Assembly: GCA_937884685.1 (NCBI GenBank)
Contig: CAKZYM010001130.1
Location: forward strand, 1 to 54,407
From: an uncultured Calothrix sp.
GTDB lineage: Bacteria > Cyanobacteriota > Cyanobacteriia > Cyanobacteriales > Nostocaceae
Direction of reading: 5' to 3'
DNA: 54,407 nucleotides
Below, piece after piece: positions 3,902-27,394 of this stretch. The position numbers were made by a program, and so were the translations under genes. Position 1 is the stretch's first letter; every line of letters begins with the position of its first letter. The notes under the pieces are model-generated. The model was given only the letters and a program-made list of their open reading frames with translations. It did no database searches and was not told where the DNA came from.

Positions 3902-4030
3902 ATTTGCGACTCAAATTATTAAACTAGCAAGCTACATTTGTAATAATTTTTATCAAGAGAATTGAATCTAAGCAGAATATTTGGGAACTATAAAACCAAG
4001 AAATATATTTTTAATCTTTCTAAAACAATA

Positions 4031-7000
4031 ATGAAGAATATATCTATCCCAGAATATACCTTAGATAAAATTATTAATACTGGTGTAAGCACTAATATTT
4101 ACCGCAGTATCACAAAAGGGAATATTGCAGTTATTCTCAAAGTACTTAGAGACGATTATCCTACGTTGGAAGCGATTGCACGTCTCAAGCACGAGTATTC
4201 TGTTGCGAAAAAACTCGAACATGAAAACATCGTTAAAGCATTGCAGTTAGAAAACTCTGCCGAACATTATGCCATTATATTTGAAGATTTTGGTGGTATT
4301 TCTCTAAGACAGTATTTGGAAAGCAATAGACCATCATTGGAAACAATTCTCCAAGTAGCAATTGCAATTACTCAAGCACTTGTCTATATACATAGAAAGC
4401 AAATAGTTCATAAAGATATCAAGCCAGCAAATATTATTGTTAAAAATTTATCAGAGAATAATTCTATAAATTCAATTTATAAACCTGTGATTAAACTCAC
4501 AGACTTTAGTATTGCTTCATGTTTAGAAAAAGAAATAACCCAACAAATAAATTGTAATCAATTAGAAGGAACCCTTGCTTATATATCTCCCGAACAAACG
4601 GGTAGAATGAATCGTAGTTTGGACTTCCGTAGCGATTTTTATTCATTAGGGGTAATGTTATATGAAATGTTAACAGGTCAGTTACCATTTATTAGTAATG
4701 ACCCTTTAGAATTAATACATGCTCATATTGCCGAGCAACCTACTTCAATTAATAAGCTAAATCCAAATATTAATACTACGGTTTGTGCAATCGTTGAAAA
4801 ATTAATGGCAAAAAATGCCGAAGATAGGTATCAAAGTGCTGAAGGTTTACTAGCAGATTTGCAACAATGCTGGAAACAGCTACAAGCAACTGGAACCATT
4901 TTGAATTTCACTCCCGGTCAATTGGAAGTTATTTCTCAGTTGTTGATTCCTCAAAAGCTTTATGGAAGAGAATCACAAGTACAGTTATTACTAAATGCTT
5001 TTGAAAGAATGACTAAGGGTAATAGTGAGTTAATTTTAGTCTCTGGTTATTCTGGTATTGGTAAAACATCAGTAATTAATGAAGTAAATAAACCAATCGT
5101 AAAAGCTGGAGGATATTTTATTAGTGGTAAGTCAGACCAGTTTAAACGAGATATTCCCTACGCATCTTTGATACAAGCTTTTTCAAGTTTATGCAAACAA
5201 TTGCTCACAGAATCTTCATCAAAATTAAAAAGATGGCAAAATAAAATCCAAAAGGCTGTTGGTCATAATGGACAAGTGATAATTGACTTAATACCGGAAG
5301 TTGAATTAATCATTGGGAAGCAAGTAGAAGTACCACATCTAGAACCTATAGAAGCTCAAAATAGACTCAACCAAATATTTCAAAAATTTGTTAGTTTGTT
5401 TACGAAAAAAGGGCATCCCCTGGTCATATTTTTGGATGATTTACAATGGGCCGATACTTCAACTTTAAAACTGATGCAGCTATTAGCCATCGATTTAAGT
5501 ATTGAATATTTATTAATAATTGGAGCTTATCGAGATAACGAAGTTAATCCAACTCATCCCCTAATTAGTACAGTTGAAGAAATTGAGAAACATAAAACAA
5601 TTAATAACATTACTCTTGAACCTCTTTCAAATCACAATGTAACAGAATTAGTCGCAGAAACTCTCAATGATAACAAAGAAGACAGTAGTTCACTAGCAAA
5701 ATTAATTTTCAATAAAACTGGTGGTAATCCTTTCTTTGTTACTCAATTACTACAGAGTTTGTATCAGGAATCTTTACTCAAGTTTGATTTTAATCAACAA
5801 AAGTGGTTGTGGAGCATTCAAGATATACAGTCTGTTGGAATAACAGATAAAAGTGTAGTGGATTTAGTCGCATCAAGAATTGAAAAATTACCAGAAATCA
5901 CGCAACAGGTGCTAAAACTAGCTGCTTGTATTGGAGATAAATTTACCTTAGATGTACTATCAGTAGTCAACGAAGAATCAATTAATCAAACTGCAAACTA
6001 CTTAAATAAAGCACTTGAAGCCGGTTTAATTCTACCATTGAATCAAAACTATCGAATCCCTTTATTGTTCGATGACTCCGAGCAAATAAGTTCATTCGAT
6101 AATAATCAAATTGGTTATAAATTTTTGCACGACCGAGTTCAACAAGCAGCTTATTCATTAATTCCAGAAAATAAAAAACAAGCCACGCATTTAAGAATTG
6201 GACAGCTTTTAAAAGAATCAACCAGCCAAGATAAACTCGCAGATAATATTTTAGATATTGTTAATCAATTAAATTTTGGTATTGAGTTACTCAAAGAAGA
6301 GAGAGAAAAATTAGAGCTAGCAAATCTAAATTTGTTAGCTGGTCAAAAAGCTAAGAGAAATTCTGCATTTGAAGCTGCAATCAAATACTTAAATATTGGC
6401 TTAAAGCTATTAGTCGAAAATTCTTGGCAGAGTCATTACGATTTGACCCTTGGGTTATATGTAGAGACAGCAGAAGCTGAATATTTAACTGGTAATTTTG
6501 AAAAATCCCACGAGTTAACAAATATATCGTTAGAGAAGTGTAAAAATATTTTAGATAAGGTTAGAGTTTATGAAATAAAAATTCAATTTCATACAGCAAA
6601 AGGAGAAGTTACGAAAGCATTAGATATTGGGGTTACTGTATTGAAAGGTTTGGGATTAAATTTACCAAAGCAAGCAAAGAATATTCATATTTTATCTGCA
6701 TTTGCTCAAACTAAATTAGTTTTAGCTGGTAAAAACATAGAAGATTTGCTTTATTTGTCAGAAATGGAAGACCCTTATAAATTAGCAATAATGAAAATGA
6801 TAATGTTTATTACCCCTGTTGCTTCTCAATCTGGGTCATTGCTATTTCCGCTAATGGTATTAGCGATGGTAAGGTTATCTATTCAATATGGTAATAGCAT
6901 GTATTCTTCTTATGCATATAGTGGCTACGGTGCTATGCTCTGCGATAAGTTTGGAGATATTGATTCAGGATATCGCTTTGGTCAGTTAGGTATTAAATTA

Positions 7001-9448
7001 CTTTCTCATCTAAATGCTTATTCACTAAAAGCAAAAGTTTTTCTGATTTACAATACAATGATTAAGCATTTTAAAGGACACATCTCTCAAACAATTCCCA
7101 ATCTAATTGAGGGAGTACAGAGTGGAGTCGAAACAGGAGATATATTATTTTCTAGTTATAATGCTTGTTTTGTGGTTCAAAATAGTTTTTTTTGTAATAC
7201 CCATCTCGACATATTTATTAAAGAAATAGATAAATATATTGAATTAGTAAGTAATAATTTCAAAATTGAAACTGATGTTGTAGGACTGAAAGTTTTAAGA
7301 CAAACCGTGCTACAACTGCAAGGATTAACTTTAAATAGAATTTCCTTAACGAGCGATGACTTAAGTGAAGAAGATTTTCTTTATTTATATAAAGAACAAC
7401 CAATAATAATGAGAATTTTTTGTTTTTGTAAAGCCCAAAATAATTATCTTTTTGCAAACTATCAAGTTAGTATTAAATCTGTAAAAGAATCACAAAAATA
7501 TGAAGAGTCAGATCCAGGATTTTTTGTCTATATTCTGAATAATTTCTATTATTCTTTATCATTATTAGCCGATATTACAAATGCATCTCAACAAGAAAAA
7601 CAAAATTATCTACATCAAATCAAAATTAATCAACGAAAAATGAAAGTTTGGGCCAATTATGCTTCCTGCAACTTTCAACATAAATATGATTTAGTTGAAG
7701 CTGAAAGAGCTAGAGTCTTGGGCAAAAATAATTTAGCAATTGATTTATATGATAAAGCAGTCGCAGGAGCGAAAGGAAATAACTATACAGCAGAAGAAGC
7801 TCTTGCGAACGAACTTGCGGCAAAATTCTATATTGAGCAAGGTAAAGAAAAATTTGCCAAGATTTATATGACAGATGCTTACTATGGTTATTTCAAATGG
7901 GGTGCTTTTGCTAAAGTTAAAGATTTAGAAGATAATTATCCCGACTATATTATTCGTACTCAAACAGGTATATCTCTAGATAAAAAAGGTACAATAGCTT
8001 CAACTAGTTTTAGCCAAACTTTAGCTTTAGATACTTCAACTTTAATTAAATCATCTTTAGCATTAAGTAGCGAAGTGATTCTGGAAGATTTAATACACAA
8101 ACTGATGCATTTAGCTAAATTAAATGCAGGGGCAGAAAAAGTTTTATTTATTGCTAATAATCAAAATGAATTAGTGATTGAAGCTTTATTAAATGAAAAA
8201 AATGAGATATCTATATTACAATCTCTGACAAGCAATGCACAAAAGATATTACCTGTATCTATTATTAATTACGTTCACCGCACTCAACTTCCTGTTATTT
8301 TAGATGATGCAAATAGTGCCGATAATTTTAAAAATGACCTTTATATTCTCTCAAATAAACCAAAATCAATTCTCGTATCTCCTATTATTCATAATGCAAA
8401 GATGAGCGGAATTTTGTATTTAGAAAATAATCTTATTAATAGTGCATTTACAAAAGATAGACTAGAAATTTTGAAAGTATTATCAGCGCAAGCAGCTGTT
8501 TCTGTAGAAAATGCCCGTTTCTATTCTACCTTAGAAGCACGAGTGAATGAAAGGACGCAACAGCTAGAAGAAAAAAATAAGGAATTACAAGCTATTACCC
8601 AACAGTTACAAACTACTTTGCAAAAACTAAAACGTACTCAATCACAGTTGGTTCATAACGAAAAAATGTCCTCTTTAGGTCAATTAGTAGCAGGTATCGC
8701 TCATGAAATTAACAATCCAGTTAGCTTTATTTATGGTAATTTAACATATACTTCTACATATATAGAATCTTTATTAGAATTGATTGATATTTATCAAGAA
8801 AACTCTTGCTATGACAATATTCCTCAAGCTATCGAAAAGATTGAAGAAATAGACTTACCCTATATTAGAGAAGATGTACCAAATCTAATTAATTCAATGA
8901 AAATGGGTGCATCGCGCATACGGGATATTGTTAAATCGCTACGCATTTTCTCGCGTTTAGATGAGGCAAAAATTAAAAAGATTGATATACATGAAAATCT
9001 CGATAGTACATTAATGATTCTCGTACAAAAATTAGGAAGTATTCAAGTTATTAAAGATTATGCTCAATTGCCACAAGTAAGCTGTTATGCAGGCGAAATA
9101 AATCAAGTTTTTCTACATTTAATTACTAACGCAATTGATGCACTATCGACAGGAGTAGGTGAATTATTTGAATCAAAGCAAGCTCCTACAATTGTGATTA
9201 GCACAGAAATAGATACTAGCAATACAGTCATTGTTCGGATAGCTGATAATGGTGTAGGAATGAAAGATAATATTAAGCAAAAAATATTTGACCCTTTCTT
9301 TACCACTAAGCCAGTTGGTCAAGGTACTGGTATGGGACTATCTATAAGTCATCAAATTATTACAGAAAAACATCAAGGCAGTTTAGAATGTATATCTTCA
9401 CCGGGGAAAGGAACAACATTCATAATTGGCATACCCCTTTCAATATAG
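4031..9448 (+). CDS. HstK-type hybrid kinase: Ser/Thr kinase + AAA ATPase + helical repeats + GAF + histidine kinase
   Basis: HKDIKPAN, DFS, GTLAYISPEQTGRMN; Walker A GYSGIGKT, Walker B LVIFLDDLQWAD; H-box AGIAHEINNP; DNGVGM, FDPFFTTK, GTGMGL. ATG 4031 preferred over TTG 3962. Confidence 0.92.
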   Translation: MKNISIPEYTLDKIINTGVSTNIYRSITKGNIAVILKVLRDDYPTLEAIARLKHEYSVAKKLEHENIVKALQLENSAEHYAIIFEDFGGISLRQYLESNRPSLETILQVAIAITQALVYIHRKQIVHKDIKPANIIVKNLSENNSINSIYKPVIKLTDFSIASCLEKEITQQINCNQLEGTLAYISPEQTGRMNRSLDFRSDFYSLGVMLYEMLTGQLPFISNDPLELIHAHIAEQPTSINKLNPNINTTVCAIVEKLMAKNAEDRYQSAEGLLADLQQCWKQLQATGTILNFTPGQLEVISQLLIPQKLYGRESQVQLLLNAFERMTKGNSELILVSGYSGIGKTSVINEVNKPIVKAGGYFISGKSDQFKRDIPYASLIQAFSSLCKQLLTESSSKLKRWQNKIQKAVGHNGQVIIDLIPEVELIIGKQVEVPHLEPIEAQNRLNQIFQKFVSLFTKKGHPLVIFLDDLQWADTSTLKLMQLLAIDLSIEYLLIIGAYRDNEVNPTHPLISTVEEIEKHKTINNITLEPLSNHNVTELVAETLNDNKEDSSSLAKLIFNKTGGNPFFVTQLLQSLYQESLLKFDFNQQKWLWSIQDIQSVGITDKSVVDLVASRIEKLPEITQQVLKLAACIGDKFTLDVLSVVNEESINQTANYLNKALEAGLILPLNQNYRIPLLFDDSEQISSFDNNQIGYKFLHDRVQQAAYSLIPENKKQATHLRIGQLLKESTSQDKLADNILDIVNQLNFGIELLKEEREKLELANLNLLAGQKAKRNSAFEAAIKYLNIGLKLLVENSWQSHYDLTLGLYVETAEAEYLTGNFEKSHELTNISLEKCKNILDKVRVYEIKIQFHTAKGEVTKALDIGVTVLKGLGLNLPKQAKNIHILSAFAQTKLVLAGKNIEDLLYLSEMEDPYKLAIMKMIMFITPVASQSGSLLFPLMVLAMVRLSIQYGNSMYSSYAYSGYGAMLCDKFGDIDSGYRFGQLGIKLLSHLNAYSLKAKVFLIYNTMIKHFKGHISQTIPNLIEGVQSGVETGDILFSSYNACFVVQNSFFCNTHLDIFIKEIDKYIELVSNNFKIETDVVGLKVLRQTVLQLQGLTLNRISLTSDDLSEEDFLYLYKEQPIIMRIFCFCKAQNNYLFANYQVSIKSVKESQKYEESDPGFFVYILNNFYYSLSLLADITNASQQEKQNYLHQIKINQRKMKVWANYASCNFQHKYDLVEAERARVLGKNNLAIDLYDKAVAGAKGNNYTAEEALANELAAKFYIEQGKEKFAKIYMTDAYYGYFKWGAFAKVKDLEDNYPDYIIRTQTGISLDKKGTIASTSFSQTLALDTSTLIKSSLALSSEVILEDLIHKLMHLAKLNAGAEKVLFIANNQNELVIEALLNEKNEISILQSLTSNAQKILPVSIINYVHRTQLPVILDDANSADNFKNDLYILSNKPKSILVSPIIHNAKMSGILYLENNLINSAFTKDRLEILKVLSAQAAVSVENARFYSTLEARVNERTQQLEEKNKELQAITQQLQTTLQKLKRTQSQLVHNEKMSSLGQLVAGIAHEINNPVSFIYGNLTYTSTYIESLLELIDIYQENSCYDNIPQAIEKIEEIDLPYIREDVPNLINSMKMGASRIRDIVKSLRIFSRLDEAKIKKIDIHENLDSTLMILVQKLGSIQVIKDYAQLPQVSCYAGEINQVFLHLITNAIDALSTGVGELFESKQAPTIVISTEIDTSNTVIVRIADNGVGMKDNIKQKIFDPFFTTKPVGQGTGMGLSISHQIITEKHQGSLECISSPGKGTTFIIGIPLSI

Positions 9449-9614: not shown

Positions 9615-11045
9615 TTATTTTGTTTGTTGTGGGACTGTAGAGGAATCTAAAGAATGCATCAGGACTTTTGCTAGGATATTTGGTGCGAAAAGTGATTGGG
9701 GAGCTTTTACCATAAGAACTACCTCTAAAAATTTTTTGTAGATTTTGGCATCTTTGACTGATAAAAGTAATATTTGATCCATGTATCCATGCATTAGTTT
9801 GGTTAATATATTCATTTGACGACCTTTGGTTGTTTCCCAGCGGCAATCTTCGCTAGTTGTCATTAACCAAGGATTTTTCAAACGTTTTGCCAGCTTGCTT
9901 TGGAAGCGCTTCGTTAAACCTCTTAGACTATCGGGAGAACGCTGCAATTGTTCTCGCAGGCAGAGGTCTAGAGTTAAAGCACCTAGAGCAGATACAGTCA
10001 TACCCTGACCGTAATGCGGATTGAAAGCACATACAGCATCACCAATAGCAATCAAGCCTTCTGGCAATTTGGAAAGCTTTTCGTAGTGATTCCATGAATT
10101 TTCCATCCGTCGATAGCCGTAGACTGGAGAAATTGGTCTAGCATCTTTAATTGCTTCATAAATTAACGGGGTACGTAGACTACGAAGAAATTCCATAAAA
10201 CCATCTTGATCCGTAGGTGGATAATCTTTAGCAGTACCGATAGCAGTAGCAGCCCAACGGTTACCTTCAACTAGACACAAAAATCCGCCTCGTTTATCTT
10301 GAGGTGGTTTAGTCGCAACTACGATACCTTTCCAATCAGCTTGATAATTTTCTGGTACTTCATACCAGCAAGTACTATAGCCTCCAAAAGAGTTGATTAC
10401 TGTTTGCCTAGGTGCTTGATAGCCGATTTTCTCTAACCATTTAGGTAATAGGGAATTACGTCCACTAGCATCGACTACTAAATCAGCAGCTAATTGTTCT
10501 TCAGATTCCTTGTGGGAGGATATTTGAACCCCGGTAATTTTGGAATTACTCTCGTCACTTACCAATCCTCTAACTTGAGTTGCCGTGATAAATTTCAGAT
10601 TGGTATAGCTGCTCAAACGCTTCCTTACCAAGCATTCCAAAAAGTTTCGACTACAACTGCGAGTTATTAAGTCTGAAGGACTAAGGGATGCCCATCCCCA
10701 TACATTTAGGAAATAATATTCTGAAGACCAGTCTACACTAGGAGCGCCACCTGTGGTTAATTCTGCTTCTATTCCAGGAAACAATTGCTCCAAAATCTGC
10801 TGTCCTTGGAGAAGCAATGTATGAACGTGATTTGCTTGAGGAACACCTCGTCGTGTTTCTGGCTGCTGTGGTAGTCTATCGCGTTCGATTATAGTTTCGC
10901 AATCGAAGTGTTCTAGCAAAACCCTCGATGCCAATAATCCTGACATACCAGCACCAATCACTACCGCATGACTATTTTTGCCAATTCTGTTAATAGTTTT
11001 ACAATTTACTTTGGTAAACATAAGTCTTTTTTTGGTGACAGACAT
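9615..11045 (-). CDS. FAD-dependent monooxygenase (UbiH-like / Lsd18-MonCI epoxidase-like family)
   Basis: GAGMSG Rossmann motif, RRGVPQANHVH, VVDASGR, GDAVCAFNPHYGQGMT. Start uncertain (11066 TTG, 11045 or 11021 ATG). Confidence 0.85.
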   Translation of the reverse strand: MSVTKKRLMFTKVNCKTINRIGKNSHAVVIGAGMSGLLASRVLLEHFDCETIIERDRLPQQPETRRGVPQANHVHTLLLQGQQILEQLFPGIEAELTTGGAPSVDWSSEYYFLNVWGWASLSPSDLITRSCSRNFLECLVRKRLSSYTNLKFITATQVRGLVSDESNSKITGVQISSHKESEEQLAADLVVDASGRNSLLPKWLEKIGYQAPRQTVINSFGGYSTCWYEVPENYQADWKGIVVATKPPQDKRGGFLCLVEGNRWAATAIGTAKDYPPTDQDGFMEFLRSLRTPLIYEAIKDARPISPVYGYRRMENSWNHYEKLSKLPEGLIAIGDAVCAFNPHYGQGMTVSALGALTLDLCLREQLQRSPDSLRGLTKRFQSKLAKRLKNPWLMTTSEDCRWETTKGRQMNILTKLMHGYMDQILLLSVKDAKIYKKFLEVVLMVKAPQSLFAPNILAKVLMHSLDSSTVPQQTK

Positions 11046-11161
11046 GAAATTATCGATACGGAGCAACCCAAAAATTTGAGTTCTAAAATCATAAACGTAA
11101 ATAGACTATATTCAAGTGCTATCGCAAGCAAATACTAGAATTTAATTGAGAATTAAATTAT

Positions 11162-11241
11162 TTATAGTTATTCCAATTAATTTTCGCAGTGCGAGCAAGA
11201 TGCTCGCACTACCATCTGTTTTTTCGTAAGAATAACTATAA
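11162..11241. repeat. Small MITE/REP-like element
   Basis: 12-bp terminal inverted repeats TTATAGTTATTC/GAATAACTATAA enclosing a perfect 10-bp hairpin AGTGCGAGCA-aga-TGCTCGCACT (11188-11210). Confidence 0.65.
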
Positions 11242-11451
11242 TTCTCAATTACACCTGATCCAAATTTTTGATATTGCTCTTGTATCGATATTACGATTAT
11301 TCGTTATTTTCTTTCAAAAGCTGCTCAAGGGTTAAAGTGACTAAATTCTGGTTATTCTGTTGACACAACTGATAACAGAATGAGCATTTTTATAGCTATT
11401 TACAGCACTTTTCAGTTAGATTTGGGTACACTTAGTGATGCTAGTGTTTTC

Positions 11452-12201
11452 TTATATTTGTGCTACTGATTTATCAATACTACTCATTGTTGTAAATGGC
11501 CGATCATAAGCGTGCTTGTGAGCAAAGGTAAACATTTCATTCATTGAGTCTGCGAAATCTGCAAAAACTTTTTCTATCAGAGTGAACGCTTTTTCTTTTT
11601 GAGCTTCGGTTAGCTGTATATTTTCGATAAAATTCTCTACTGAATCCATATCTGCTTGAATGTGACCTGTCTCTTTTACGATGTGAGAAGGACCAAAATA
11701 AGGGTAGTGCTGCTTAGTTATCTCTGTAAGTTCTTTTGCTACTTGTGAAGCCTCAAATAAACCAACATTTCCAATTGCTTCTACTGATTCAGCCACAGCA
11801 AGCTTGATTAAAACATCCTCCTCCAAAGTACATATACCAAATAAGTTATAGGCCATTTGACGCACTTTAATAGTTTCCTCACCCCAAAGGAATTTTAAGG
11901 CATCAGTATAATTAATAGGACTATCGTATCCCATTAGCTGCATATCTTTGAGAAACCATGACCAATGCTGTGCATCTTCGCGGGAGTGCTGGTTCATCAT
12001 CTCTTGAATTTTACTATCCGCTGGCTCTTTATAAAGTACGATTCTATTAAAATCTTTAAACATCATTGCAAAAGGAGCAAAAGCTGGTGTCCAAGCTAGC
12101 CTTTGTCTTGGGTCTATACTTTTATCTTGCATAAATTGAATTAATTGAGTTTGAGCAATGTCTTGCTTCTTTTTTTCGATTAAAGCTAAAATTTCCTTCA
12201 T
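11452..12201 (-). CDS. Heme-oxygenase-like diiron oxidase (HDO), AetD nitrile-synthase-like
   Basis: All-helical ~250 aa; H72xxE75D76xxH79W, E138xxE141, H173xxxE177xxH180 mirror the AetD motifs as recalled (HTQEDAKHW, SHVEVETGH); GGAG RBS upstream; 19 bp from the upstream gene. Confidence 0.82.
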   Translation of the reverse strand: MKEILALIEKKKQDIAQTQLIQFMQDKSIDPRQRLAWTPAFAPFAMMFKDFNRIVLYKEPADSKIQEMMNQHSREDAQHWSWFLKDMQLMGYDSPINYTDALKFLWGEETIKVRQMAYNLFGICTLEEDVLIKLAVAESVEAIGNVGLFEASQVAKELTEITKQHYPYFGPSHIVKETGHIQADMDSVENFIENIQLTEAQKEKAFTLIEKVFADFADSMNEMFTFAHKHAYDRPFTTMSSIDKSVAQI

Positions 12202-12220
12202 TTTTAATACTCCAAATAAC

Positions 12221-13303
12221 TTAAAAAAACGGATGAGATTCCAAAGCCAGATAAACCGTTACTCGTCGTTTGTTCTGCTTATCTCGACGAAACGAAATAC
12301 ATGAATGTATTCCAGAGCGCGCATTCAGAGAGCGGTTTGTAACTGCTTTAATCGAACTATCGTAAATAGAGGCTGGAAGATTTTTATTTACGAGATAGTT
12401 ATTAATGCGCTCTCGCATTACACCGTCATTGGTAGCATAAGGTGTAAGTGGAATTTGAATTGTGGCTGTATTTGGGGCACTTGGATTACCTTCAATAAAA
12501 GCAAAACAAGAAATCACAGGTCTTTTAGATAATACTATCGTATCTGCAATAGCCTGACAAAATTCGGTAACATCTCCCGGTACATAATTACGCGCAACGC
12601 TATACATTTTCTCCAGTTCTTCTGCTGTAATATCACGGTGTTGCCAATAGATTTTTACTCTGGCTTCTGGTTTTGCAGACAGGTCTAGAGAAAAGTATTT
12701 AAGTTCATTTTTGCTTGGGTCTTGCTCTTTTAAAACAGCTTCTACAGCTAACCAAGACTCTTTTAATCCAAGACGCTTAAAGGTTTCCTTGATTACATCC
12801 TGTGTTTCATTTTTCCCCTTTGCTTGTGGATTTAAATAGATTTTGAACTCTGATTTTTTGTTGGGTAAAAAGCAAGCTCCATGCCACATTGCAAAATGGG
12901 CAGCTTCGTCTTCAGGAAAAAACAGGTCGCTAACCTGATTTAGTCGAGTTAAACTTGCACCATAATTATCCATCAACCAATAATTAAATTGCATTCCCGC
13001 TCGCCAATTAGATAGCAAACTAAAACCATCTCTTTGGGATTCACATAAAATCCTTAGCTCTGGAGTATCTTTATCGATTGCAACTGAAAACTCAAATGGA
13101 GTATGGTCATCAGCTATCCCAGACAACCATAGTGGTTGCTTGTCAATGACGTTATTTCCCCATGATGAAGTCATCTGCTTGAAGACTTCCATTATCTCCA
13201 AGGTTTTATGCTTCATCCCGCAGATATTGACAAGAGAATATAATTTTTCCGAACCATACTCAAGATATGTAGGTGTTTTTAAATCAGTCTGTTGTGCATA
13301 CAT
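12221..13303 (-). CDS. Tryptophan dimethylallyltransferase (DMATS-type ABBA aromatic prenyltransferase)
   Basis: WLSGIADDHTPFEFSVA (indole-binding Glu motif), ELRILCE, MWHG, FKIYLNP, YFSLDL, RVKIY, RRVTVY: basic/Tyr residues typical of bacterial IptA/SCO7467/PriB-like DMATS. Confidence 0.88.
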   Translation of the reverse strand: MYAQQTDLKTPTYLEYGSEKLYSLVNICGMKHKTLEIMEVFKQMTSSWGNNVIDKQPLWLSGIADDHTPFEFSVAIDKDTPELRILCESQRDGFSLLSNWRAGMQFNYWLMDNYGASLTRLNQVSDLFFPEDEAAHFAMWHGACFLPNKKSEFKIYLNPQAKGKNETQDVIKETFKRLGLKESWLAVEAVLKEQDPSKNELKYFSLDLSAKPEARVKIYWQHRDITAEELEKMYSVARNYVPGDVTEFCQAIADTIVLSKRPVISCFAFIEGNPSAPNTATIQIPLTPYATNDGVMRERINNYLVNKNLPASIYDSSIKAVTNRSLNARSGIHSCISFRRDKQNKRRVTVYLALESHPFF

Positions 13304-14175: not shown

Positions 14176-17100
14176 TTAAACAATTGCAAAATTATCAACA
14201 CTCAAAACATTCGCATCAATTCCTTGTAAAATTCCTAAACTCATTCCATTAACAGCAATTAAACTATTATCTTCCTGCTGAGTAATGCTTATATCTTCAA
14301 ACCCAATCCCCAAGCCAGCAATTCCAATTACGTCTTCACCAATCGTAAAATCAGTAATAGTATTTGTTCCATCGGGAGTTTCAGCAACAGCAATCCAAAA
14401 TTGGTCTGCACCTTCACCACCAGTGACAATATTATTACCACCAGATGTAGTAAAGAAACCGTCGTTTCCTGCTTCACCAAAAACGCGAGAATCTTTTCCT
14501 AAAATTAATACATCATCACCTTGACCACCGTAAATGCGATTATCACCCTTACCACTAGTAGAAGCATCAATTAAATCATCTCCTTTACCAGCGAAAATAA
14601 TTTTATTACTATTTTCTACTTCAATAACATCATTCTCAACAGTTCCAAATACAGTTTCCTGATTTGTCGAAACACCTGTTTCGAGCAATTCAAATGTAAC
14701 TTCTGGATAAGTCGAATTATCACCTGCTAATAAATGACTATCCTCGTTATTCAGATATTTGTCGAAGAAAGCAACTGTATAATCATTAATAATCGTAGTT
14801 GCTCGCTCTGGTTCAATAGGAGCAATAAAATTTTCTAAATCACCTAAATCAACTCCAGCATTTTTTAACTGGTTTAAGAAAATCGGGATGTCGCTAAAAC
14901 TTTGATGATTTGTATCGTCAATTGTGAGTTGATAACCATCATTTTGCATATTTTCAATGAATGATTCTCGTATTTCGTTTAATTCTTTTGATAATGGGTC
15001 TGAAGGAGTACCAACTCCAAATAGGTCACTGTTCATAAACATAAAGGGTTGGCTCAAACTTTCATCAACTCTATTGATTAACAGCGAACCATCTAAATTA
15101 ATTCCAGCTTTGAAACGTTTATCTTGTAATAAGGTTTCAGCAGCAGTAGCACCACCTAATGAATATCCCAGAAAACCGACTCTATCCAAGTCTAATTTTC
15201 GACTCAAAATTCCTTCACCTGCGTTAATTTCTTCTAATTCATCTAATACAAATTGTGCATCTTCTGCTCGAACTCCCACACTTTGTCTAGCAGCTTTTAG
15301 AAAATCCGCTTCATTTTGTACGTTAAATACAGGAGATTGACCTATGATTCTTCCATCGTGAAAAACAGAGAGAGTAGAATCATAGGTATGTTTCATGCTA
15401 ACATCTACTTAACCTTGAGATGCTATTTCCTCTGCACTAATCGTACTGAACTCTGATGGAGTTCCGAAACCGTGAGAAAAGAATAGTACGGGATAATCGG
15501 ATTCAGCATCAGCAACGGGAGCATTGATAATACTGTTGGTAGATATCTGTTCATTTAATTCAATTAATTCTTCCTCAGATAAACCAAAACCCGGTGCTAG
15601 CTCTCGACTTAATTCTTCACTCAAATAGGGAGCGGTTTTTCCTTCAGAGATTTCAGTGGGATACCAAACTTTAACAGTCAACTCTCGGTTGTCGTCGGGG
15701 TCTTCAGTATATATTTCTTCTCTTTCCCAATCTTTGAAATAATAATCAGCAGTTCCTACGGAATATTCACCAGTTGGTTCGGGGAAGGATAATCCAGAAG
15801 AATCATCGTTGACAAAATTATCTTCACTTAGACTATCAGCAGTTACATCTTGCAAAATTGCGATATCAACACCATCGATGGTAATTACAGCATCTTTATC
15901 TTGTTGGGTAATATTAATATCTTCTAAATTTACACCCAAATTAGTAATATCAATCAAATCATCATCAACTTTAAAATCAAAAATTTTATCTGTCCCTTGA
16001 TCCAGTTTGAGGACAAATACATCCTTACCCACACCACCATTGAGACTATCGTTACCCAAACCACCCCTTAGAGTATCATCACCAGCATCACCCCAAAGTC
16101 TGTCATTCCCAGCTTCACCAAAAATCAGGTCATTACCAGCTTCACCAAAAATCAGGTCATTTCCCATTCCACCATAAATAGTGTCATCACCACCAACGCT
16201 TCCACCACCAGAACTATTATTTAAATCCCCTCGTAAAACATCATCACCACCTTGACCGAAAATCAAATCATTACCCAAACCCCCAGCTATAGTATCGTTA
16301 CCTTCTTCACCAGCAAGGGTATTATCTGCTTCGTCACCTACTTTGACATCGCTTTCTTCCGGAACGATTTCACCAAACTTGAGAAATTTTTGAAATTTTT
16401 TCCAATCACCAGCATTATCAGGGTCACTAATAAGTTGAAGTAATTTAACTTGGTCTATAGAATCATCATCAAGTTCTGCTAGTTTACTTTCATCTTCAAG
16501 TAAACCAATCAAATCAGCTTTATTATTAATTACATCAACAACATCAATTAAACCATTAACAAAATTACTGTTAAAAGAATCAATCCATTCTTCAGTGCTA
16601 ATATTATTATTAGGTTCGCCGAATAAAGTATTATTAACAGCCGAAAATATAGAATCGATTGCAGATGGTAAGGAATCAGAAGATTGGTTTGTCAGAATTA
16701 CAACCGTAGTATCGTTCTCGGGGAAATAGCGCATTTTACTAAAGTAGCCAAAAGTCCCACCATCATGTCCCCACATTTCTCCCCAGGGGGTTTGCTCTTC
16801 ATATATACCCAATCCATATTCGTCTCCAACTTCCACCTCACTTTCATCAATGTTTGACCAAGAAAGCATATGATTCAAACTTTCAGGTGTTAATAATTCT
16901 CCACCGAAAAGTGCATTGCTAAAACGGGATACATCCTTAGTATTTGAGACAATTCCACCATCGGCTAAGGTAGAAGCAAGAGATGAAAAAGAATTTTTTG
17001 TTTGTTCAATAACACCATCCGAGCCAAAACTCCCATCTTCTCCGATTAAATCAGCATATCCGTTAACGAATTTATCTTCTGGGATTTCATCTCCAACAAA

Positions 17101-17718
17101 ATAAGTATTTTCTAATTCCAATGGCTCCAAAATTAAACGATTAACTTCATCTTGATAAGAATTACCTGTAGCAGCTTCGATGACCATTCCCAGCAGAAGA
17201 TAATTAGTATTGGAATAATTAAATGATTCCCCAGGAGCAAAATCAGGATTTTCCCCAGCCACGTAATTATTAATTATTGCTTCCCGACTCCAATCAATAT
17301 CAGCACCATTTTGAAAAGCTAGTTCATCTGCTAACCATTTTTGATTTGTATAGTTAGCAATACCGCTAGTATTATTCAACAATTGCTCCACGCTTATATC
17401 CTGAACATCAGGAATATTACGAATAATAGAGTCTGGTAACCATTGGTCTAAAGTATCTTGTAAACTCAGCTTTTCTTCTTCTACTAATTTAAGAAGAGTT
17501 GCTGATGTAAATGTTTTACTAATACTACCTATTTTGAATAATTCATCTGGATTTAATGATTTTTCTGTCTCCAAATTAGAAACTCCACTAGCACCAAACC
17601 AAGTACCCTCGGAATTGATCACAGCGACTGTCGCACCAGCGATTCCAGCACTGTCCACAGCAGTATCTATGGTTGTTTGTAATTGTTGAGCGAGTTCCGA
17701 AGAGATATTGTAATTCAT
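14176..17718 (-). pseudogene. Secreted fusion hydrolase (beta-lactamase/D-Ala-D-Ala-peptidase-family serine hydrolase + RTX + PAF-acetylhydrolase-like alpha/beta hydrolase + RTX), split by one in-frame TAA at 15409-15411
   Basis: SISK, YSN, HDG motifs; GGxGND nonapeptides; FSHGFG...ASQG*VDVSMKHTYD continues in frame into the 406-aa ORF with GYSLGG, NLDG, NHQSFSD. The stop may be a sequence error. Confidence 0.8.
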
Positions 17719-20185: not shown

Positions 20186-22462
20186 ATGACCGTTGAAAAT
20201 GATACAGATGGGATTTCTTATACAGAAATACCACAACAAACAAATTCAAATGGAGGAGTTATAGAAGCTCCACCTGTTGATTATGGTAATACTTTTAAAT
20301 TGCATAGCAATCCAGATGCTAAACATACCATCTATTTAGATTTTGACGGTCATGTAACAGAAGATGCTAACTGGAAAAATGGCGCAAGAATTGATTCACC
20401 AGCATACGATACGAATGGTGATTCCTCTTCTTTTACTAACGAGGAACTTGAGACAATTCAAAAAATTTGGCAGCGAGTGACCGAAGATTTTGCTCCTTTT
20501 AATGTAAATGTCACTACAGAAGAACCTGATATAGAAGATTTACAAAAAATTGGAGATGGAGATGATAGATGGGGTATCCGAACAGTTATAACCCAAGACA
20601 CAGATACTCAAATTGCTCCTGGTTCTGGTGGTATTGCTAATGTTTATAGCTTTAATTGGAATACGGATACACCTGCGTTTTCTTTTAACAAAGGTGAAAA
20701 CAATGCTGCAATGACTATCAGTCATGAAGTTGGTCATACTTTAGGGCTGAATCATGATGGTATTTTCCCTAGCACCGAGTATCACCCCGGTTTTGGTAGT
20801 GGAGATACTAGTTGGGGTCCAATCATGGGCGCACCTTTTGGGAAGAGTCTTACTCAGTGGAGTCAGGGAGATTACAAAAATGCCGATAACACTGGTTCAA
20901 ATGCGAATTTTTTTAGTGGAGAAGATGATTTAGAAATTATCACTACTGAAAATGGCTTTGACTATTGTGTTGACGATTACGGTAATAGTAAGACTACAGC
21001 TTTTAAACTCACACCAACTAATACTGGCACCGTGAGTGCTTTTGGTATCATCGAACGCAACACCGATGTTGATGTCTTTTCCTTTGTAACTGCTACGGGT
21101 AATGTATTGTTTAGCATTGAGCCTAGTTCTCAAGTGTATCTTTCTGATGGCAATGGTAAATATACGTTAGAGTATCTGGACTCACGCGGGTCAAATTTAG
21201 ATATTCTGGCAAAACTTTACAGTGCTGATGGTACTTTGATTGCAGAATCTAATCCAGTAGAATCTTTATTCGCTTCCTTCGATTTATCTTTGGATGCTGG
21301 AGAGTATTACATCCATGTTGAAGGTACTGGAAAAGGCGACCCATTTGCAGAAAATCCCGATGGTTATACTGACTACGGTAGTCTGGGTCAGTATCAAATA
21401 AACGGTAACGTTGTCGAATCTCCCGATACCAACAATACCAAGCAACTGACCGAAGTAAATTCCTCTCTAGATATCTTTAATATTTCTGGAGAAACTGGTA
21501 TATCGAAACTGCAAGTAACTTTTAGTAGTGTAAATTCGGATGGAATCAACGAACTTGGAGTATTTGCAGTTGATGATCAACAAGGTAGCATCGATGGTAT
21601 TCTTCCTAGTGAATCAGGTTATGCAAAAGCAGCTTTAGAGCGAGCAAAAGTTGTGTTCTCTGCTTTAACTAATTCTCCGAATGGTTTTGGTAGTCAAACT
21701 AAAAACCGTTTGATAGAATTCCCAGATAATACAAACATCCGTTTCTACTTGGTAGATAACAGTACTACCAATGCTGTACTCTCGGGTAAAACATCCATTT
21801 CACAAGTCATTTTCTCAGATACCACTACCTTAAAAGTAGAAACTCAAAGCCAAGAAGAATTTTCCTTGGGTTGGAATGATACAAATGATGGTAATTTCAG
21901 CGATTTAATTGTAAAAATTGAGCAAACAGATAATCAATTACCTTTGGGTACAAATCTTCAAAATTCAACACAAGCTGAATTAATTGATTTAACTGATTTG
22001 ACTCAATCAGTAGTAACTGCAAACTTTTCTGTATTTAGAGAAGCAGCATTCAACAACGAAGTTTACTTCTATAAAGTTGACGCTGATGGAAAAGTTGACA
22101 GATTCGACCCTAATACCAATATCTACCAAAAATCAGCTCTCGATAATCTGGTCAAAGATGCAGTTACCGGTGAAATAGTCAAATTTAGTGCAGCTAATCA
22201 AGGTGTAAAACCTGGAACTGCTCAAATTGAAACGGGTTCGATTATTGCTCCTTTGATTATTGTCAACGGTAGTCTTGACCAACTTACCGACAGCGATAGT
22301 AGTAATAATCCTGAAATTTACTTCCCATATTCGGGAGCGAATGCAGACGGAGTTGACCACATTCGTTTACTTGCTGATAATACCTTTGGTTTTGAGGACT
22401 TACCCAACGGTGGTGACTCTGACTATAACGACTTGATTGTCAAGATAAACTTTAGCATTTAA
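20186..22462 (+). CDS. Secreted metzincin zinc metalloprotease with PPC-like domain and C-terminal DUF4114-like domain
   Basis: HEVGHTLGLNH zinc motif, Met-turn PIMG, TIYLDFDGH; C-terminal DHIRLLADNTFGFEDLPNGGDSDYND; GGAG RBS. Confidence 0.85.
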   Translation: MTVENDTDGISYTEIPQQTNSNGGVIEAPPVDYGNTFKLHSNPDAKHTIYLDFDGHVTEDANWKNGARIDSPAYDTNGDSSSFTNEELETIQKIWQRVTEDFAPFNVNVTTEEPDIEDLQKIGDGDDRWGIRTVITQDTDTQIAPGSGGIANVYSFNWNTDTPAFSFNKGENNAAMTISHEVGHTLGLNHDGIFPSTEYHPGFGSGDTSWGPIMGAPFGKSLTQWSQGDYKNADNTGSNANFFSGEDDLEIITTENGFDYCVDDYGNSKTTAFKLTPTNTGTVSAFGIIERNTDVDVFSFVTATGNVLFSIEPSSQVYLSDGNGKYTLEYLDSRGSNLDILAKLYSADGTLIAESNPVESLFASFDLSLDAGEYYIHVEGTGKGDPFAENPDGYTDYGSLGQYQINGNVVESPDTNNTKQLTEVNSSLDIFNISGETGISKLQVTFSSVNSDGINELGVFAVDDQQGSIDGILPSESGYAKAALERAKVVFSALTNSPNGFGSQTKNRLIEFPDNTNIRFYLVDNSTTNAVLSGKTSISQVIFSDTTTLKVETQSQEEFSLGWNDTNDGNFSDLIVKIEQTDNQLPLGTNLQNSTQAELIDLTDLTQSVVTANFSVFREAAFNNEVYFYKVDADGKVDRFDPNTNIYQKSALDNLVKDAVTGEIVKFSAANQGVKPGTAQIETGSIIAPLIIVNGSLDQLTDSDSSNNPEIYFPYSGANADGVDHIRLLADNTFGFEDLPNGGDSDYNDLIVKINFSI

Positions 22463-23135
22463 AAAATCTACAGATGGGATGTCTGTTAATACCACAATTT
22501 AATAGTAAGGTAATTAGTGGTATCGGCATATCTACCCACTCAATTCTACTTACCTACAAATTATTTTCACCAAATTCCAACACCAATATTCTTAAAAACT
22601 TCACTATTTACTTATTTTGTATCAGAATAAACCCTGATTAATTTAAATACAATTTGGGCTATTTACCGATAGTGTAACTATACTGCTATTTATTTCAGTT
22701 ACTCCCTATCACTATCAGAATCATTATGTCAAGGATAATTTTACCATTTTAATAATAATTGATGAATTACCTATGGGAGCAGGTTTAACAGCCTGCTTTT
22801 GTTTTTATTCAATAGAAACCATATATCCATATTTAATAGGGGTTAAACTATTAAATATCTTGTCCCAAACCATAAATTGTGTAAAAACTGTAAAAAAAAA
22901 GACGTATACCTTTACTATACTCTTGGCAAACACATGAGTTTTTAACTACTATATTTTTCAGTAATTACTCGAATGGCATATGTTCCTATATCTAGGTATT
23001 AATAACATTCAGCAGTTATTACTAAAATGTTGTCCTTTATTCTTTATTAACCAGATAACAACCTGTTAATAACTTTATAGATATACTTTGATTGAAACAA
23101 TTTATAACAGCAGCACCCCGAATGATACTGATATT

Positions 23136-23894
23136 ATGAGCGCACTTTTACAAATTGGCGACCGCGCTATTAGTGTTGATGAGATTCTTCCGTTGCTTAA
23201 GCAATACGGAATGCTGCCTCAGTTGCTAAAAGAAATTGTCATTGATAATGCAACTGCTTCCATAACACTTTCCGAAGAAGAAGTTACTGAAGCATATAAA
23301 CAGTTTTATCAGCAGCAGCAGTTAGGAGATGAAGAACAATTACAAGCTTGGCTCAAATCCCGTGGCTTGGGACGCGAACAGCTAGATTATCTCGTAACTC
23401 GTACTCTTCGTTTAGAAAAATTTAAACAAGATACCTGGGGAGCAAAAGTAGAACCATATTTTCTTCAGCGTAAAGAAAAGTTAGATAAAGTAATCTATTC
23501 GCTGATTCGGGTTAATGATATTGCTGTTGCTCAAGAATTATACTTTCGGGTTCAAGAAGACGAGCAGCCTTTTGCAGAACTTGCCCGTGAGTATTCCAAG
23601 GGTCCCGAAGCACAGACGGGAGGGTTGATTGGTCCGGTAGAGTTAGGGGTTCCCCATCCAGTATTAGCAAAAATGTTGCTCAAATCTCAGCCGGGACAAG
23701 CATTACCACCAACTCGCTTGGGAGATTGGATTTTAATTGTGCGATTGGAACAATTTATTCCCGCACAATTAGATGCAGCTACCCATAAGCGACTGTTAAA
23801 CGAGCAATTTGAAACCTGGCTGCAAGGAGAAATATCTTCTGCTATCAAAAATAGTCATTTATCGGTAGGCGAAGATGATTCTAAAACGGATTAA
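23136..23894 (+). CDS. PpiC/parvulin-type peptidyl-prolyl isomerase associated with type I secretion
   Basis: YSLIRV, FAELAREYS, GGLIGP motifs; precedes hlyB-hlyD; ATG 23136 preferred over TTG 23088. Confidence 0.85.
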   Translation: MSALLQIGDRAISVDEILPLLKQYGMLPQLLKEIVIDNATASITLSEEEVTEAYKQFYQQQQLGDEEQLQAWLKSRGLGREQLDYLVTRTLRLEKFKQDTWGAKVEPYFLQRKEKLDKVIYSLIRVNDIAVAQELYFRVQEDEQPFAELAREYSKGPEAQTGGLIGPVELGVPHPVLAKMLLKSQPGQALPPTRLGDWILIVRLEQFIPAQLDAATHKRLLNEQFETWLQGEISSAIKNSHLSVGEDDSKTD

Positions 23895-24192
23895 TCTTAT
23901 TTTAGATTTTGTACAAAGTTGGGAGAAGTGTTCTTTTCCCAAGCTTTCTAAGATAGGTTTTGGATTTTGGATGAAAATTTCAACTTTTTCAAGCTAACTC
24001 GGTTTAGCTGAAAATCATAAAATATATGATTTTTTAAAGCGCATTATTGTCGTCAGTCAGTCCTATAAGAAAAGAAACGCATCACCATTTCATTTAATCC
24101 AAAATCCAAATTTTTAAATTTCAGGTGTATCTCCGGGATTAATCCAAAATTCATTAACGAAATGTGTCTTTATGGCATAATGCAAAATTCCC

Positions 24193-27100: not shown

Positions 27101-27240
27101 GACTAAGTACAATCCGTAATGCTGATATTATTTTGATGTTAGACAAAGGTTATGTTGTAGAACAAGGAACTCACCAAGAACTAATGTCACTTAAAGGGCG
27201 CTACTACTGCCTGTATCAGCAACAAGAAGCACAAATTTAA
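24193..27240 (+). CDS. hlyB: Type I secretion ABC transporter (cNMP-binding + C39-like + TMD + ATPase), HlyB family
   Basis: GQSGSGKST, LSGGQRQR, LILDEATSALD, ITHRL; transmembrane region; N-terminal cNMP-like domain. Confidence 0.92.
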   Translation: MTYTTTNIQEFLAEIAPFNQLQPSSMTRLLQKAQLFRYRMGQVILAKEKMPAQVSILFSGQVRLLGYQAQTQIPVTLARLQPGEVMGWLETVRGVPGSTAIASTEVICINFDAAEFLALLGQEDSFGTYFYNRAGIVEVFELLCKQLGSLANNQLILQASGCANYKELALKVFDETQVVNLVNRDATSQLNPDYVWLISGGTVSPELIGNRFGQDESVPRGSRIRLLGVKANVFSPPEDMVQDTTEEAQQADITEVIPAGESSGTYDDIPYAPNEPPEAERNYKQDSAAAIKYPHVRGSGGVNAILACFQMLSKHLNMPFRKEVIRKVLVNQQKRTGSLSLQQCGAVAQLVGLRPQLVGVPSGALGRIEPPAIVQWQDSFAVLYEISPKNIVVGVPESGILNQKTSDVAQVLLQSQPQTEEQQDAIPVLLLQATEETPQQKFGLSWFLPSLNKYKGVLVEVFIASFFVQLFGLANPLVTQVIIDKVINQNSPDTLQVLGVFLLVIAVFEAVLTSIRTYLFVDTTNRIDLALGSEIIDHLLRLPLRYFEKRPVGELSTRVNELEKIRSFLTGTALTVVLDAVFSVIYIVVMFIYSWILALVALGTLPLFAILTFVVSPIVRRQLRHKAERNAHAQSHLVEILSGIQTVKAQNIELRSRWQWQERYASYVSAGFKTVKTSTAAGSTSGFLNKLSGLLVLWVGAYLVLEGTLTLGQLIAFRIIAGYVTSPLLRLTQLWQNFQETALSLERLSDIIDSPQEASEEDKGNIPMPMIEGAVKYDDVSFRFKPTGPMQLNNISLEIPPGVFDDIVGQSGSGKSTLMKLLPRLYPLESGRILIDGYDINKVELYSLRQQVGIVPQDTLLFEGSVQENIALNYPDATPEEIIEAAKIAVAHEFIMDLPNGYNSRVGERGSALSGGQRQRVAIARTILQNPRLLILDEATSALDYESERQVCLNLAEAFKGRTVFFITHRLSTIRNADIILMLDKGYVVEQGTHQELMSLKGRYYCLYQQQEAQI

Positions 27241-27308
27241 TAAGAACCGGAATTGGGTATTAGGCATAGGTTAAAGGTCAAAGGTCTGCATGTTAAAGGT
27301 TTTATTTG

Positions 27309-27385
27309 TAATTCCTAACTCCTAATTCCTAACCCCTAATTCCTAACTCCTAATTCCTAATTCCTAATTCCTAACTCTTAACTCC
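27309..27385 (+). repeat. STRR-type heptamer tandem repeat, consensus TAA(T/C)TCC, 11 units
   Basis: Directly visible between hlyB and hlyD. Confidence 0.9.
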
Positions 27386-27394
27386 TAAATTCCC

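What the first reader, a model, noticed from the sequence alone, without database searches (positions are those of the whole stretch)
9615..13303. Candidate new pathway: tryptophan prenyltransferase + AetD-like diiron nitrile synthase + FAD monooxygenase
Seen: three co-oriented genes, with DMATS and HDO only 19 bp apart and the FAD enzyme ~400 bp downstream. No halogenase, NRPS or PKS is in the window. Established: bacterial DMATS enzymes (IptA, SCO7467) C-prenylate free L-Trp. AetD of the aetokthonotoxin pathway converts a substituted Trp (5,7-dibromo-Trp) to indole-3-carbonitrile. Streptomyces makes 5-dimethylallylindole-3-acetonitrile with a DMATS plus a flavin enzyme. Inference: Trp -> dimethylallyl-Trp -> prenyl-indole-3-carbonitrile (or aldoxime/aldehyde) -> epoxidised or hydroxylated product. 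This would be a prenyl-for-halogen variant of aetokthonotoxin chemistry. I know of no characterised cyanobacterial pathway with this gene set.
Basis: partly seen in the sequence, partly recalled or inferred. Interest (0 to 1): 0.92.

Follow-up and report, generated by a model that had tools for sequence, protein, structure and literature searches.

The report
Prenyl version of skatole-type indole pathway
Three adjacent genes of a filamentous cyanobacterium encode a tryptophan-type prenyltransferase, a two-iron oxidase and a flavin enzyme that likely make an undescribed prenylated indole, probably prenyl-skatole rather than the nitrile first proposed, from a swappable gene cassette that sits beside a giant sensor kinase.

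Summary
In detail: DMATS (12221-13303), a 19-bp gap, an AetD-family diiron oxidase (HDO, 11452-12201) with all six iron ligands, a 406-bp gap, and a MonCI/Lsd18-like FAD enzyme (9615-11045). The linkage is real. In 8 of 16 family genomes with a DMATS, an AetD-family HDO is the next gene. These HDOs come from three separate clades, and intact DMATS-HDO fusions exist.

The nitrile reading is only one option. The window's HDO is closer to SktA (42%) than to AetD (33%), and the locus is built like skt (modifier, HDO, flavin oxygenase, facing a dual kinase), with a prenyltransferase in place of the halogenase. It falls in neither enzyme's clade, however. Ten of 13 DMATS-linked HDOs carry AetD's Ala142, against 1 of 82 others; this one has Ile.

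Relatives swap the HDO for tryptophanase, and the FAD gene for a SktC-like FMO, a P450 or a BBE-type oxidase, in the same chromosomal slot. Core pathway about 0.85; prenyl-skatole 0.38; nitrile or aldehyde 0.25. No paper describing the pairing was found. New variant, easy to test.

The parts
12221..13303 (-). DMATS-type (tryptophan/indole) prenyltransferase, 360 aa
   Evidence: PF11991; PDB 6ZRX, 4YL7, 7W8U; model pLDDT 92.8, TM 0.90 to 6-DMATS; R84, E88, K154, Y156, R215, K217, Y219, Y351 invariant or nearly so in 40 sequences
11452..12201 (-). AetD/SktA-family heme-oxygenase-like diiron oxidase, 249 aa; ligands D76, H79, E141, H173, E177, H180; substrate anchors F44, F48, Y168
   Evidence: ligand numbering from PMC11611611
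9615..11045 (-). MonCI/Lsd18-like FAD-dependent monooxygenase (alkene-epoxidase family), 476 aa
   Evidence: own clade with four close relatives, support 1.0; this copy has Glu50 where 10 of 10 other cluster members have Val
11184..11214 (-). 12-bp-stem hairpin in the HDO-FAD spacer; a short repeated element, role unknown
   Evidence: -21.5 kcal/mol and 5 copies in G000 at up to 3 mismatches; raised read depth at 11113-11313
3962..9448 (+). Dual Ser/Thr kinase-AAA-GAF-histidine kinase (cbSTKIII), convergent with the cassette; linked in position, function inferred
   Evidence: Pfam; a homologous kinase faces or follows the cassette in L021, L022, L035, L038, L039, L046, L121 and in the skt locus L163

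Best explanation
The three genes form a swappable cassette in which the prenyltransferase likely adds a dimethylallyl group to the ring of L-tryptophan, the diiron oxidase likely cuts the side chain to give probably prenyl-skatole (with cyanide and bicarbonate, as SktA does), and the FAD enzyme would epoxidise the prenyl double bond. Shown: gene identities, intact catalytic residues, repeated DMATS-HDO linkage, part swapping at one locus, adjacency to the dual kinase. Inferred: substrate, order of steps, ring position (not assignable), product, co-transcription. Confidence is about 0.85 for the core (DMATS and HDO act in one prenyl-indole pathway) and 0.38 for the full version with skatole chemistry.
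For: Linkage: of 16 genomes with a DMATS among 389 in the family, the next gene is an AetD-family HDO in 8, a fused PF14518 oxidase in 3, tryptophanase is adjacent in 2, another PLP enzyme in 1, and the DMATS is broken in 2. DMATS-linked HDOs lie in three separate cyanobacterial clades (support 0.999-1.0) plus fusion proteins. P0396, P0420 (Archangium) and P0422 (partial DMATS) fuse DMATS to an HDO that keeps its six ligands. Tryptophanase, which also removes the Trp side chain, takes the HDO's slot in L021, L043 and L046. For skatole chemistry: 41.7% to SktA against 33.0% to AetD, F216 and N145 as in SktA, and only 2 of 129 family sequences score closer to AetD. Sister cassettes L038 and L121 carry an SktC-type FMO (L038 49% to SktC; L121 83% to L038's). 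The skt locus L163 also faces a dual kinase and the aet locus L162 does not. For the FAD step: alkene-epoxidase family; a distant member sits with tryptophanase, DMATS and type-2 IPP isomerase in L126; a strain about 89% identical in run X4 (another study) has HDO and FAD adjacent.
Against: The window HDO is not in the SktA clade and lacks T139 and T142, which a review flags as possibly decisive. Ten of 13 DMATS-linked HDOs have AetD's A142. Its pocket is no smaller than average by a crude side-chain-volume sum (1483 against a median of 1488 at nine literature-named sites). Its nearest non-DMATS relatives (68-72%) stand alone beside AraC/GntR regulators, so it may act on plain Trp. The FAD gene is absent from L045, whose DMATS is 98% identical; the family is common (19 of 41 relatives); and none of the 15 FAD loci fetched from relatives held a DMATS. 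The DMATS scores below the TIGR03429 cut-off (101.5 against 163.85). The 406-bp spacer holds a strong hairpin.
Confidence: 0.38

Rival explanations
1. One reading: the HDO works like AetD and turns prenyl-Trp into prenyl-indole-3-carbonitrile, or into the 3-carbaldehyde that AetD makes as a shunt product.
For: Same fold, ligands and substrate anchors as AetD. AetD accepts Trp with or without bromine (PMC10654658) and makes an aldehyde shunt product (PMC11611611). Ala142 occurs in 10 of 13 DMATS-linked HDOs and otherwise only in AetD among 82 loci of known context, with six origins by parsimony, AetD included. P0373, left out of that count, also has Ala142 and shares a 4,062-bp contig length with DMATS P0127.
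Against: This enzyme has V140, I143 and F216, not M, A and S, and it is farther from AetD than from SktA. AetD clusters with no other sequence in the published network. Ala142 may simply make room for a ring substituent.
Confidence: 0.25
2. The HDO does a third, undescribed reaction on prenyl-Trp (for example N-oxygenation to the aldoxime or acetonitrile, or desaturation), as the FMO SCO7468 does in Streptomyces.
For: It belongs to neither characterised clade and has an unusual V140/I143/G147 pocket shared only with P0002. The two characterised members, 39% identical, do different chemistry.
Against: Phe48 instead of a seventh Glu ligand places it with the substrate-triggered enzymes rather than the SznF/RohS N-oxygenases. 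There is no positive evidence for any particular new reaction.
Confidence: 0.2
3. The order is reversed or the parts are loosely coupled: the HDO cleaves plain Trp and the DMATS prenylates the resulting indole, or the FAD gene is a passenger.
For: Pocket volume is not reduced. The closest non-DMATS relatives have no modifying enzyme nearby. SktA and AetD both turn over plain Trp. The FAD gene is dispensable in L045 and carries a private Glu50 here.
Against: The structurally closest DMATS enzymes were solved with free L-Trp. In Streptomyces clusters prenylation comes first (PMC3617294). Recurrent residue change in DMATS-linked HDOs suggests a changed substrate. Members of the FAD clade recur with DMATS or HDO.
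Confidence: 0.17

Closest known systems
skt cluster of Nostoc punctiforme NIES-2108 (SktA skatole synthase, SktB brominase, SktC FMO; PMC11869266)
   Same: Trp modifier + AetD-family HDO + flavin oxygenase; HDO 41.7% identical, with F214 and N144 shared; the locus faces a dual kinase
   Different: Prenyltransferase instead of halogenase; FAD enzyme unrelated to SktC beyond the FAD motif (27 bits); HDO outside the SktA clade, without T139 and T142
AetD and the aetokthonotoxin cluster (PMC11611611, PMC10654658)
   Same: Fold (TM 0.87), six iron ligands, F44, F48, Y167
   Different: 33% identity; M139, A142, I146 and S214 replaced; no halogenase, tryptophanase or coupling P450 in the window; no dual kinase in the 20 kb fetched around aet
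Actinomycete indole-prenyltransferase clusters, type A (IptA + tryptophanase) and type B (SCO7467 + FMO SCO7468) (PMC3617294)
   Same: DMATS followed by one enzyme that processes the Trp side chain, always beside a sensor module (conservon), with signalling suggested by the authors; cyanobacterial DMATS + tryptophanase versions exist (L021, L043, L046, L126)
   Different: Here the side-chain enzyme is a diiron oxidase and the neighbouring sensor is a dual Ser/Thr-His kinase
6-DMATS of Micromonospora olivasterospora (6ZRX), PriB, IptA, 5-DMATS
   Same: Fold TM 0.87-0.90; conserved Arg/Lys/Tyr set
   Different: None of the known position-setting residues is kept: H329 maps to C335, V259 to I264, PriB H312 to Q283
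MonCI / Lsd18 flavin epoxidases (PMC10560226)
   Same: E 1.6e-71 over most of the length; both signature regions recognisable
   Different: The polyether-specific motifs are only partly matched; no PKS or carrier protein in the window

Membership tests
AetD/SktA-type HDO | Seven-helix heme-oxygenase-like fold | tested here: met
   Predicted model pLDDT 91, TM 0.87 to 8TWT, E 2.7e-12
AetD/SktA-type HDO | 3-His/3-carboxylate ligands (AetD D76, H79, E140, H172, E176, H179) | tested here: met
   D76, H79, E141, H173, E177, H180
AetD/SktA-type HDO | Substrate anchors Y167, F44 and Phe48 in place of a seventh Glu | tested here: met
   Y168, F44, F48
AetD nitrile synthase | Groups with AetD | tested here: not met
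   33.0% identity; separate clade
AetD nitrile synthase | M139, A142, S214 | tested here: not met
   V140, I143, F216
AetD nitrile synthase | Forms indole-3-carbonitrile | not testable with these tools
   Needs an assay
SktA skatole synthase | Groups with SktA | tested here: not met
   41.7% identity, but outside the SktA clade; deep branches weakly supported
SktA skatole synthase | T139, T142, F214 | tested here: inconclusive
   Phe kept, both Thr replaced; the role of these residues is itself untested
SktA skatole synthase | Forms skatole, cyanide and bicarbonate | not testable with these tools
   Needs an assay
skt cluster | Tryptophan halogenase and SktC-type FMO beside the HDO | tested here: not met
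   No halogenase; FAD enzyme against SktC 27 bits; the SktC type is present in sister cassettes L038 and L121
Bacterial tryptophan DMATS | PF11991 and PT-barrel fold | tested here: met
   52.7 bits over a cut-off of 25; TM 0.90
Bacterial tryptophan DMATS | TIGR03429 curated cut-off | tested here: not met
   101.5 against 163.85
Bacterial tryptophan DMATS | Conserved indole-binding Glu and diphosphate-binding Arg/Lys/Tyr | tested here: met
   E88, R84, K154, Y156, R215, K217, Y219, Y351 conserved; their roles are recalled, not from a call
Bacterial tryptophan DMATS | C5 or C6 position-setting base | tested here: inconclusive
   I264, Q283, C335 match neither set
Polyether epoxidases (MonCI/Lsd18) | Two conserved motifs of PMC10560226 | tested here: not met
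   Compared by eye: both regions align, but several fixed positions differ
Actinomycete type A/B prenyl-indole clusters | DMATS with tryptophanase or class-B FMO, after a conservon | tested here: not met
   Neither enzyme nor a conservon in the window

The most novel reading that the evidence does not exclude
Nostocales carry a widespread, unrecognised family of signal-synthase/receptor pairs. An AetD/SktA-type oxidase with interchangeable tailoring genes (halogenase, prenyltransferase, FMO, P450, methyltransferase, epoxidase) makes strain-specific small indoles that the adjacent dual Ser/Thr-His kinase senses, and this cassette is the prenyl variant, possibly with HDO chemistry that is neither nitrile nor skatole formation.
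Probability: 0.25. Interest if true: 0.82.

Novelty: new variant of a known kind. Interest (0 to 1): 0.63.

Why it matters
Only two AetD-family enzymes were found characterised in the papers searched, and what sends one to nitrile and the other to skatole plus cyanide is an open question (PMC13108848). The family is present in 225 of 389 related genomes. The DMATS-linked members supply natural variants at the residue that review singles out (Ala, Ile or Thr at 142), so three or four purified enzymes would test it directly. The cassette would also be a third type of bacterial prenyl-indole pathway and, as far as the searches reach, an undescribed one for cyanobacteria. The link to dual kinases offers candidate ligands for a kinase class for which the one survey read (passages) names no small-molecule ligand.

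Tried and rejected
Indiacens and labindoles as products of such a pathway (recalled lead): rejected. Labindoles are not prenylated (abstract), and indiacen B was made from 4-iodoindole with no C3 group described.

Assigning the prenylation position from known residues failed.

Pocket-volume proxy: DMATS-linked HDOs are smaller as a group (1432 against 1494 at nine literature-named sites; kin not independent), but this enzyme is average.

The P450 beside DMATS-HDO in L035 is not close to the aet-cluster P450 (27%).

Promoter scan was at chance level (23 against 18.6 +/- 4.0), and the repeat search gave nothing notable.

No RNA holder was listed, which says nothing about expression.

The ESM Atlas gave only hypothetical or heme-oxygenase-like clusters.

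Neighbours of the other G000 dual kinases could not be judged because the contigs are short. No complex prediction was run.

Co-location of P0125/P0008/P0248 (7,671 bp), P0130/P0249 (16,958 bp) and P0127/P0373 (4,062 bp) is inferred only from equal contig lengths and was not seen as DNA.

Earlier-findings look-ups by words and by sequence returned nothing. PMC7253389 held no relevant passage.
Full report
Observation. The three genes are as described: DMATS 12221-13303, HDO 11452-12201 (19-bp gap), FAD enzyme 9615-11045 (406-bp gap), all on the minus strand and convergent with a 1,828-aa Ser/Thr kinase-AAA-GAF-His kinase (3962-9448). The closest named relatives of the DMATS are in Calothrix parasitica NIES-267 (93%) and a Rivularia genome (91%). 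GC3 of the three genes (0.29-0.30) lies within the range of five neighbouring genes (0.21-0.36). A contig of run X1 bridges kinase end, FAD, HDO and part of the DMATS; X1 may be the source sample.

The enzymes. The DMATS passes PF11991 but not TIGR03429 and folds like bacterial tryptophan DMATS enzymes (TM 0.90). Known position-setting residues are not kept. 6-DMATS V259 and H329 (PMC9355150, one passage) map to I264 and C335. PriB H312 (role recalled) maps to Q283, where most more distant relatives have His. The ring position is therefore open. The HDO has all six AetD ligands and the anchors F44, F48 and Y168. The FAD protein is a MonCI/Lsd18 relative that only partly matches the polyether-specific motifs. 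It is unrelated to SktC beyond the FAD motif. This copy has Glu50 where 10 of 10 other cluster members and 49 of 49 aligned relatives have Val; this is either a private allele or an assembly error.

PMC11869266 (main text read; supplement part 1 of 3 and a term search) shows that the AetD homologue SktA converts 5-bromo-Trp or Trp to the skatole, cyanide and bicarbonate. It also reports that AetD clusters with no other sequence, and that skt is halogenase + HDO + FMO. I recovered both proteins from genomes: AetD at L162:8506-9225 and SktA at L163:8575-9288. The window HDO is 41.7% (201 bits) to SktA and 33.0% (145 bits) to AetD; only 2 of 129 family sequences score closer to AetD. A review (PMC13108848, passages) names M139/A142/S214 in AetD against T139/T142/F214 in SktA; the window has V140/I143/F216. 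In a FastTree tree of 130 sequences it falls in neither clade, and deep branches are weak. So the family assignment is firm and the product is not.

Co-occurrence. The HDO family is common: 225 of 389 genomes of the family, with four matches in G000. DMATS is rare: 16 of 389, and 2 of 401 in a phylum-wide draw. In those 16 genomes the gene after the DMATS is an AetD-family HDO in 8 (window, L035, L022, L038, L121, L125, L127, L129). A fused PF14518 oxidase occurs in 3 (L122-L124). Tryptophanase is adjacent in 2 (L021; L126, which also has type-2 IPP isomerase and a 309-aa MonCI-like ORF). Another PLP enzyme follows in 1 (L128), and the DMATS is broken in 2 (L039, L130). The DMATS-linked HDOs belong to three separate cyanobacterial clades. 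Fusions of DMATS with an HDO that keeps its ligands exist (P0396; P0420 from Archangium; the partial P0422), as do fusions whose HDO half has lost its ligands (P0165, P0181 from Hyalangium, P0187). The pairing thus arose several times, though genomes within a clade are not independent.

A swappable slot. Between the DMATS and the same convergent kinase, close relatives carry different genes: HDO + FAD (window); HDO alone (L045: DMATS 98%, HDO 71%); a distant HDO + P450, with or without a BBE-type oxidase (L035, L022); HDO + SktC-like FMO + SDR (L038, L121; 49% to SktC); or tryptophanase + BBE-type oxidase (L021, L046). Run X4, from another study, holds both a strain about 89% identical with HDO and FAD adjacent and a contig with 3,215 other letters in the slot. 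Equal contig lengths suggest all three genes again on a 7,671-bp contig and DMATS + FAD on a 16,958-bp contig; this was not seen as DNA. The constant logic is prenylate, strip the side chain, oxidise. Against a fixed three-step pathway: the FAD family is common (19 of 41 relatives), and none of the 15 FAD loci fetched from relatives held a DMATS.

A residue that cuts the other way. Ala at AetD position 142 occurs in 10 of 13 DMATS-linked HDOs and in 1 of 82 others, which is AetD itself. Parsimony gives six origins including AetD. It may mark AetD-like chemistry or just a roomier pocket. The window enzyme is an exception (Ile143 with Gly147), and its summed pocket volume is average. This keeps the nitrile or aldehyde reading alive at about 0.25, and a new reaction at about 0.2.

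The kinase link. Of 78 HDO loci examined, 43 have a dual kinase within 8 kb, 22 do not, and 13 have short flanks; 0 of 11 full-flank FAD control loci do. In five near-complete genomes of the genus, 11 of 16 HDO loci lie within 10 kb of such a kinase, against about 2% of the genome covered; 11 of 46 kinases have an HDO. These are three orthologous locus types, not 11 events. Further contexts occur in other genera, including skt itself. The enzymes' closest non-DMATS relatives sit beside AraC/GntR regulators instead. These kinases are the cbSTKIII class (PMC2176072, passages). Streptomyces DMATS clusters likewise always follow a sensor module, and their authors suggested signalling (PMC3617294, passages). 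A signal role is inference only.

Mechanism. Most likely: L-Trp + DMAPP gives ring-prenylated Trp; the substrate-triggered diiron centre cleaves Calpha-Cbeta to give prenyl-skatole, cyanide and bicarbonate; the FAD enzyme epoxidises the prenyl alkene. Core pathway 0.85, full version 0.38.

Novelty. Searches pairing AetD, SktA or HDO terms with prenyltransferase, and prenyl-indole terms with cyanobacteria, listed no paper whose title or abstract describes this gene set. Most subscription papers are outside the library, bioRxiv supplements are closed, and the network figure of PMC11869266 could not be seen. Other papers were seen as passages only: PMC11611611, PMC10654658, PMC13133933, PMC10560226, PMC4660955, PMC9306752 and PMC12210266. 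Earlier notes of this scan describe the different DMATS-PF14518 fusions; they are leads, not support. Verdict: new variant of a known kind, interest 0.63.

Noticed in passing
L063-L076, L088-L101, L163, L168-L181; window 3962-9448: AetD/SktA-family HDO genes mostly sit next to dual Ser/Thr-His kinases, with variable tailoring genes between them (halogenase-like, two FMO types, methyltransferase, P450).
   Followed up: partly
L028:196-1859, L075, L077-L079, L082-L086: Conserved tandem pair of AetD-family HDOs divergent from an O-methyltransferase, with no kinase; in G000 one copy has an internal stop.
   Followed up: no
L042:8842-10737, L122:8736-11699, L123, L124; P0132-P0147: DMATS fused to a different oxidase (PF14518), followed in L122-L124 by a class-V PLP, kynureninase-like enzyme.
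   Followed up: partly
P0165, P0181, P0187: N-terminal AetD-like domain that has lost most iron ligands, fused to a DMATS (P0181 named Hyalangium); possibly a substrate-binding pseudo-enzyme.
   Followed up: partly
P0376; P0367, P0368; P0405, P0407, P0415: HDO fused to an FMO-like enzyme (891 aa), HDOs with short repeated C-terminal tails, and proteins of about 530 aa with two matched stretches.
   Followed up: no
L164:6153-13300, L166, L167: Unrelated cassettes with two or three P450s, tryptophanase and a halogenase-like gene.
   Followed up: no
window 14176-17718: A beta-lactamase/RTX-repeat ORF and a PAF-acetylhydrolase/RTX-repeat ORF lie 12 bp apart, with the hydrolase domain split between them; L035 has a single 1,182-aa ORF at the matching place.
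   Followed up: no
window 11184-11214: Strong hairpin repeat in the HDO-FAD spacer, 5 copies in G000 at up to 3 mismatches.
   Followed up: partly
L130:3394-14228: Truncated DMATS fragment inside a cluster with lantibiotic-dehydratase-like genes and a peptidase-C39 transporter.
   Followed up: no
L022:9036-10101, L039:9878-12186: The DMATS is frameshifted in one genome and interrupted by an insertion sequence in another, so the cassette is also being lost.
   Followed up: no
window 20186-32200: Type I secretion genes (peptidase-C39 ABC transporter, HlyD, rotamase) flanked by DUF4114 proteins; unrelated to the finding.
   Followed up: no
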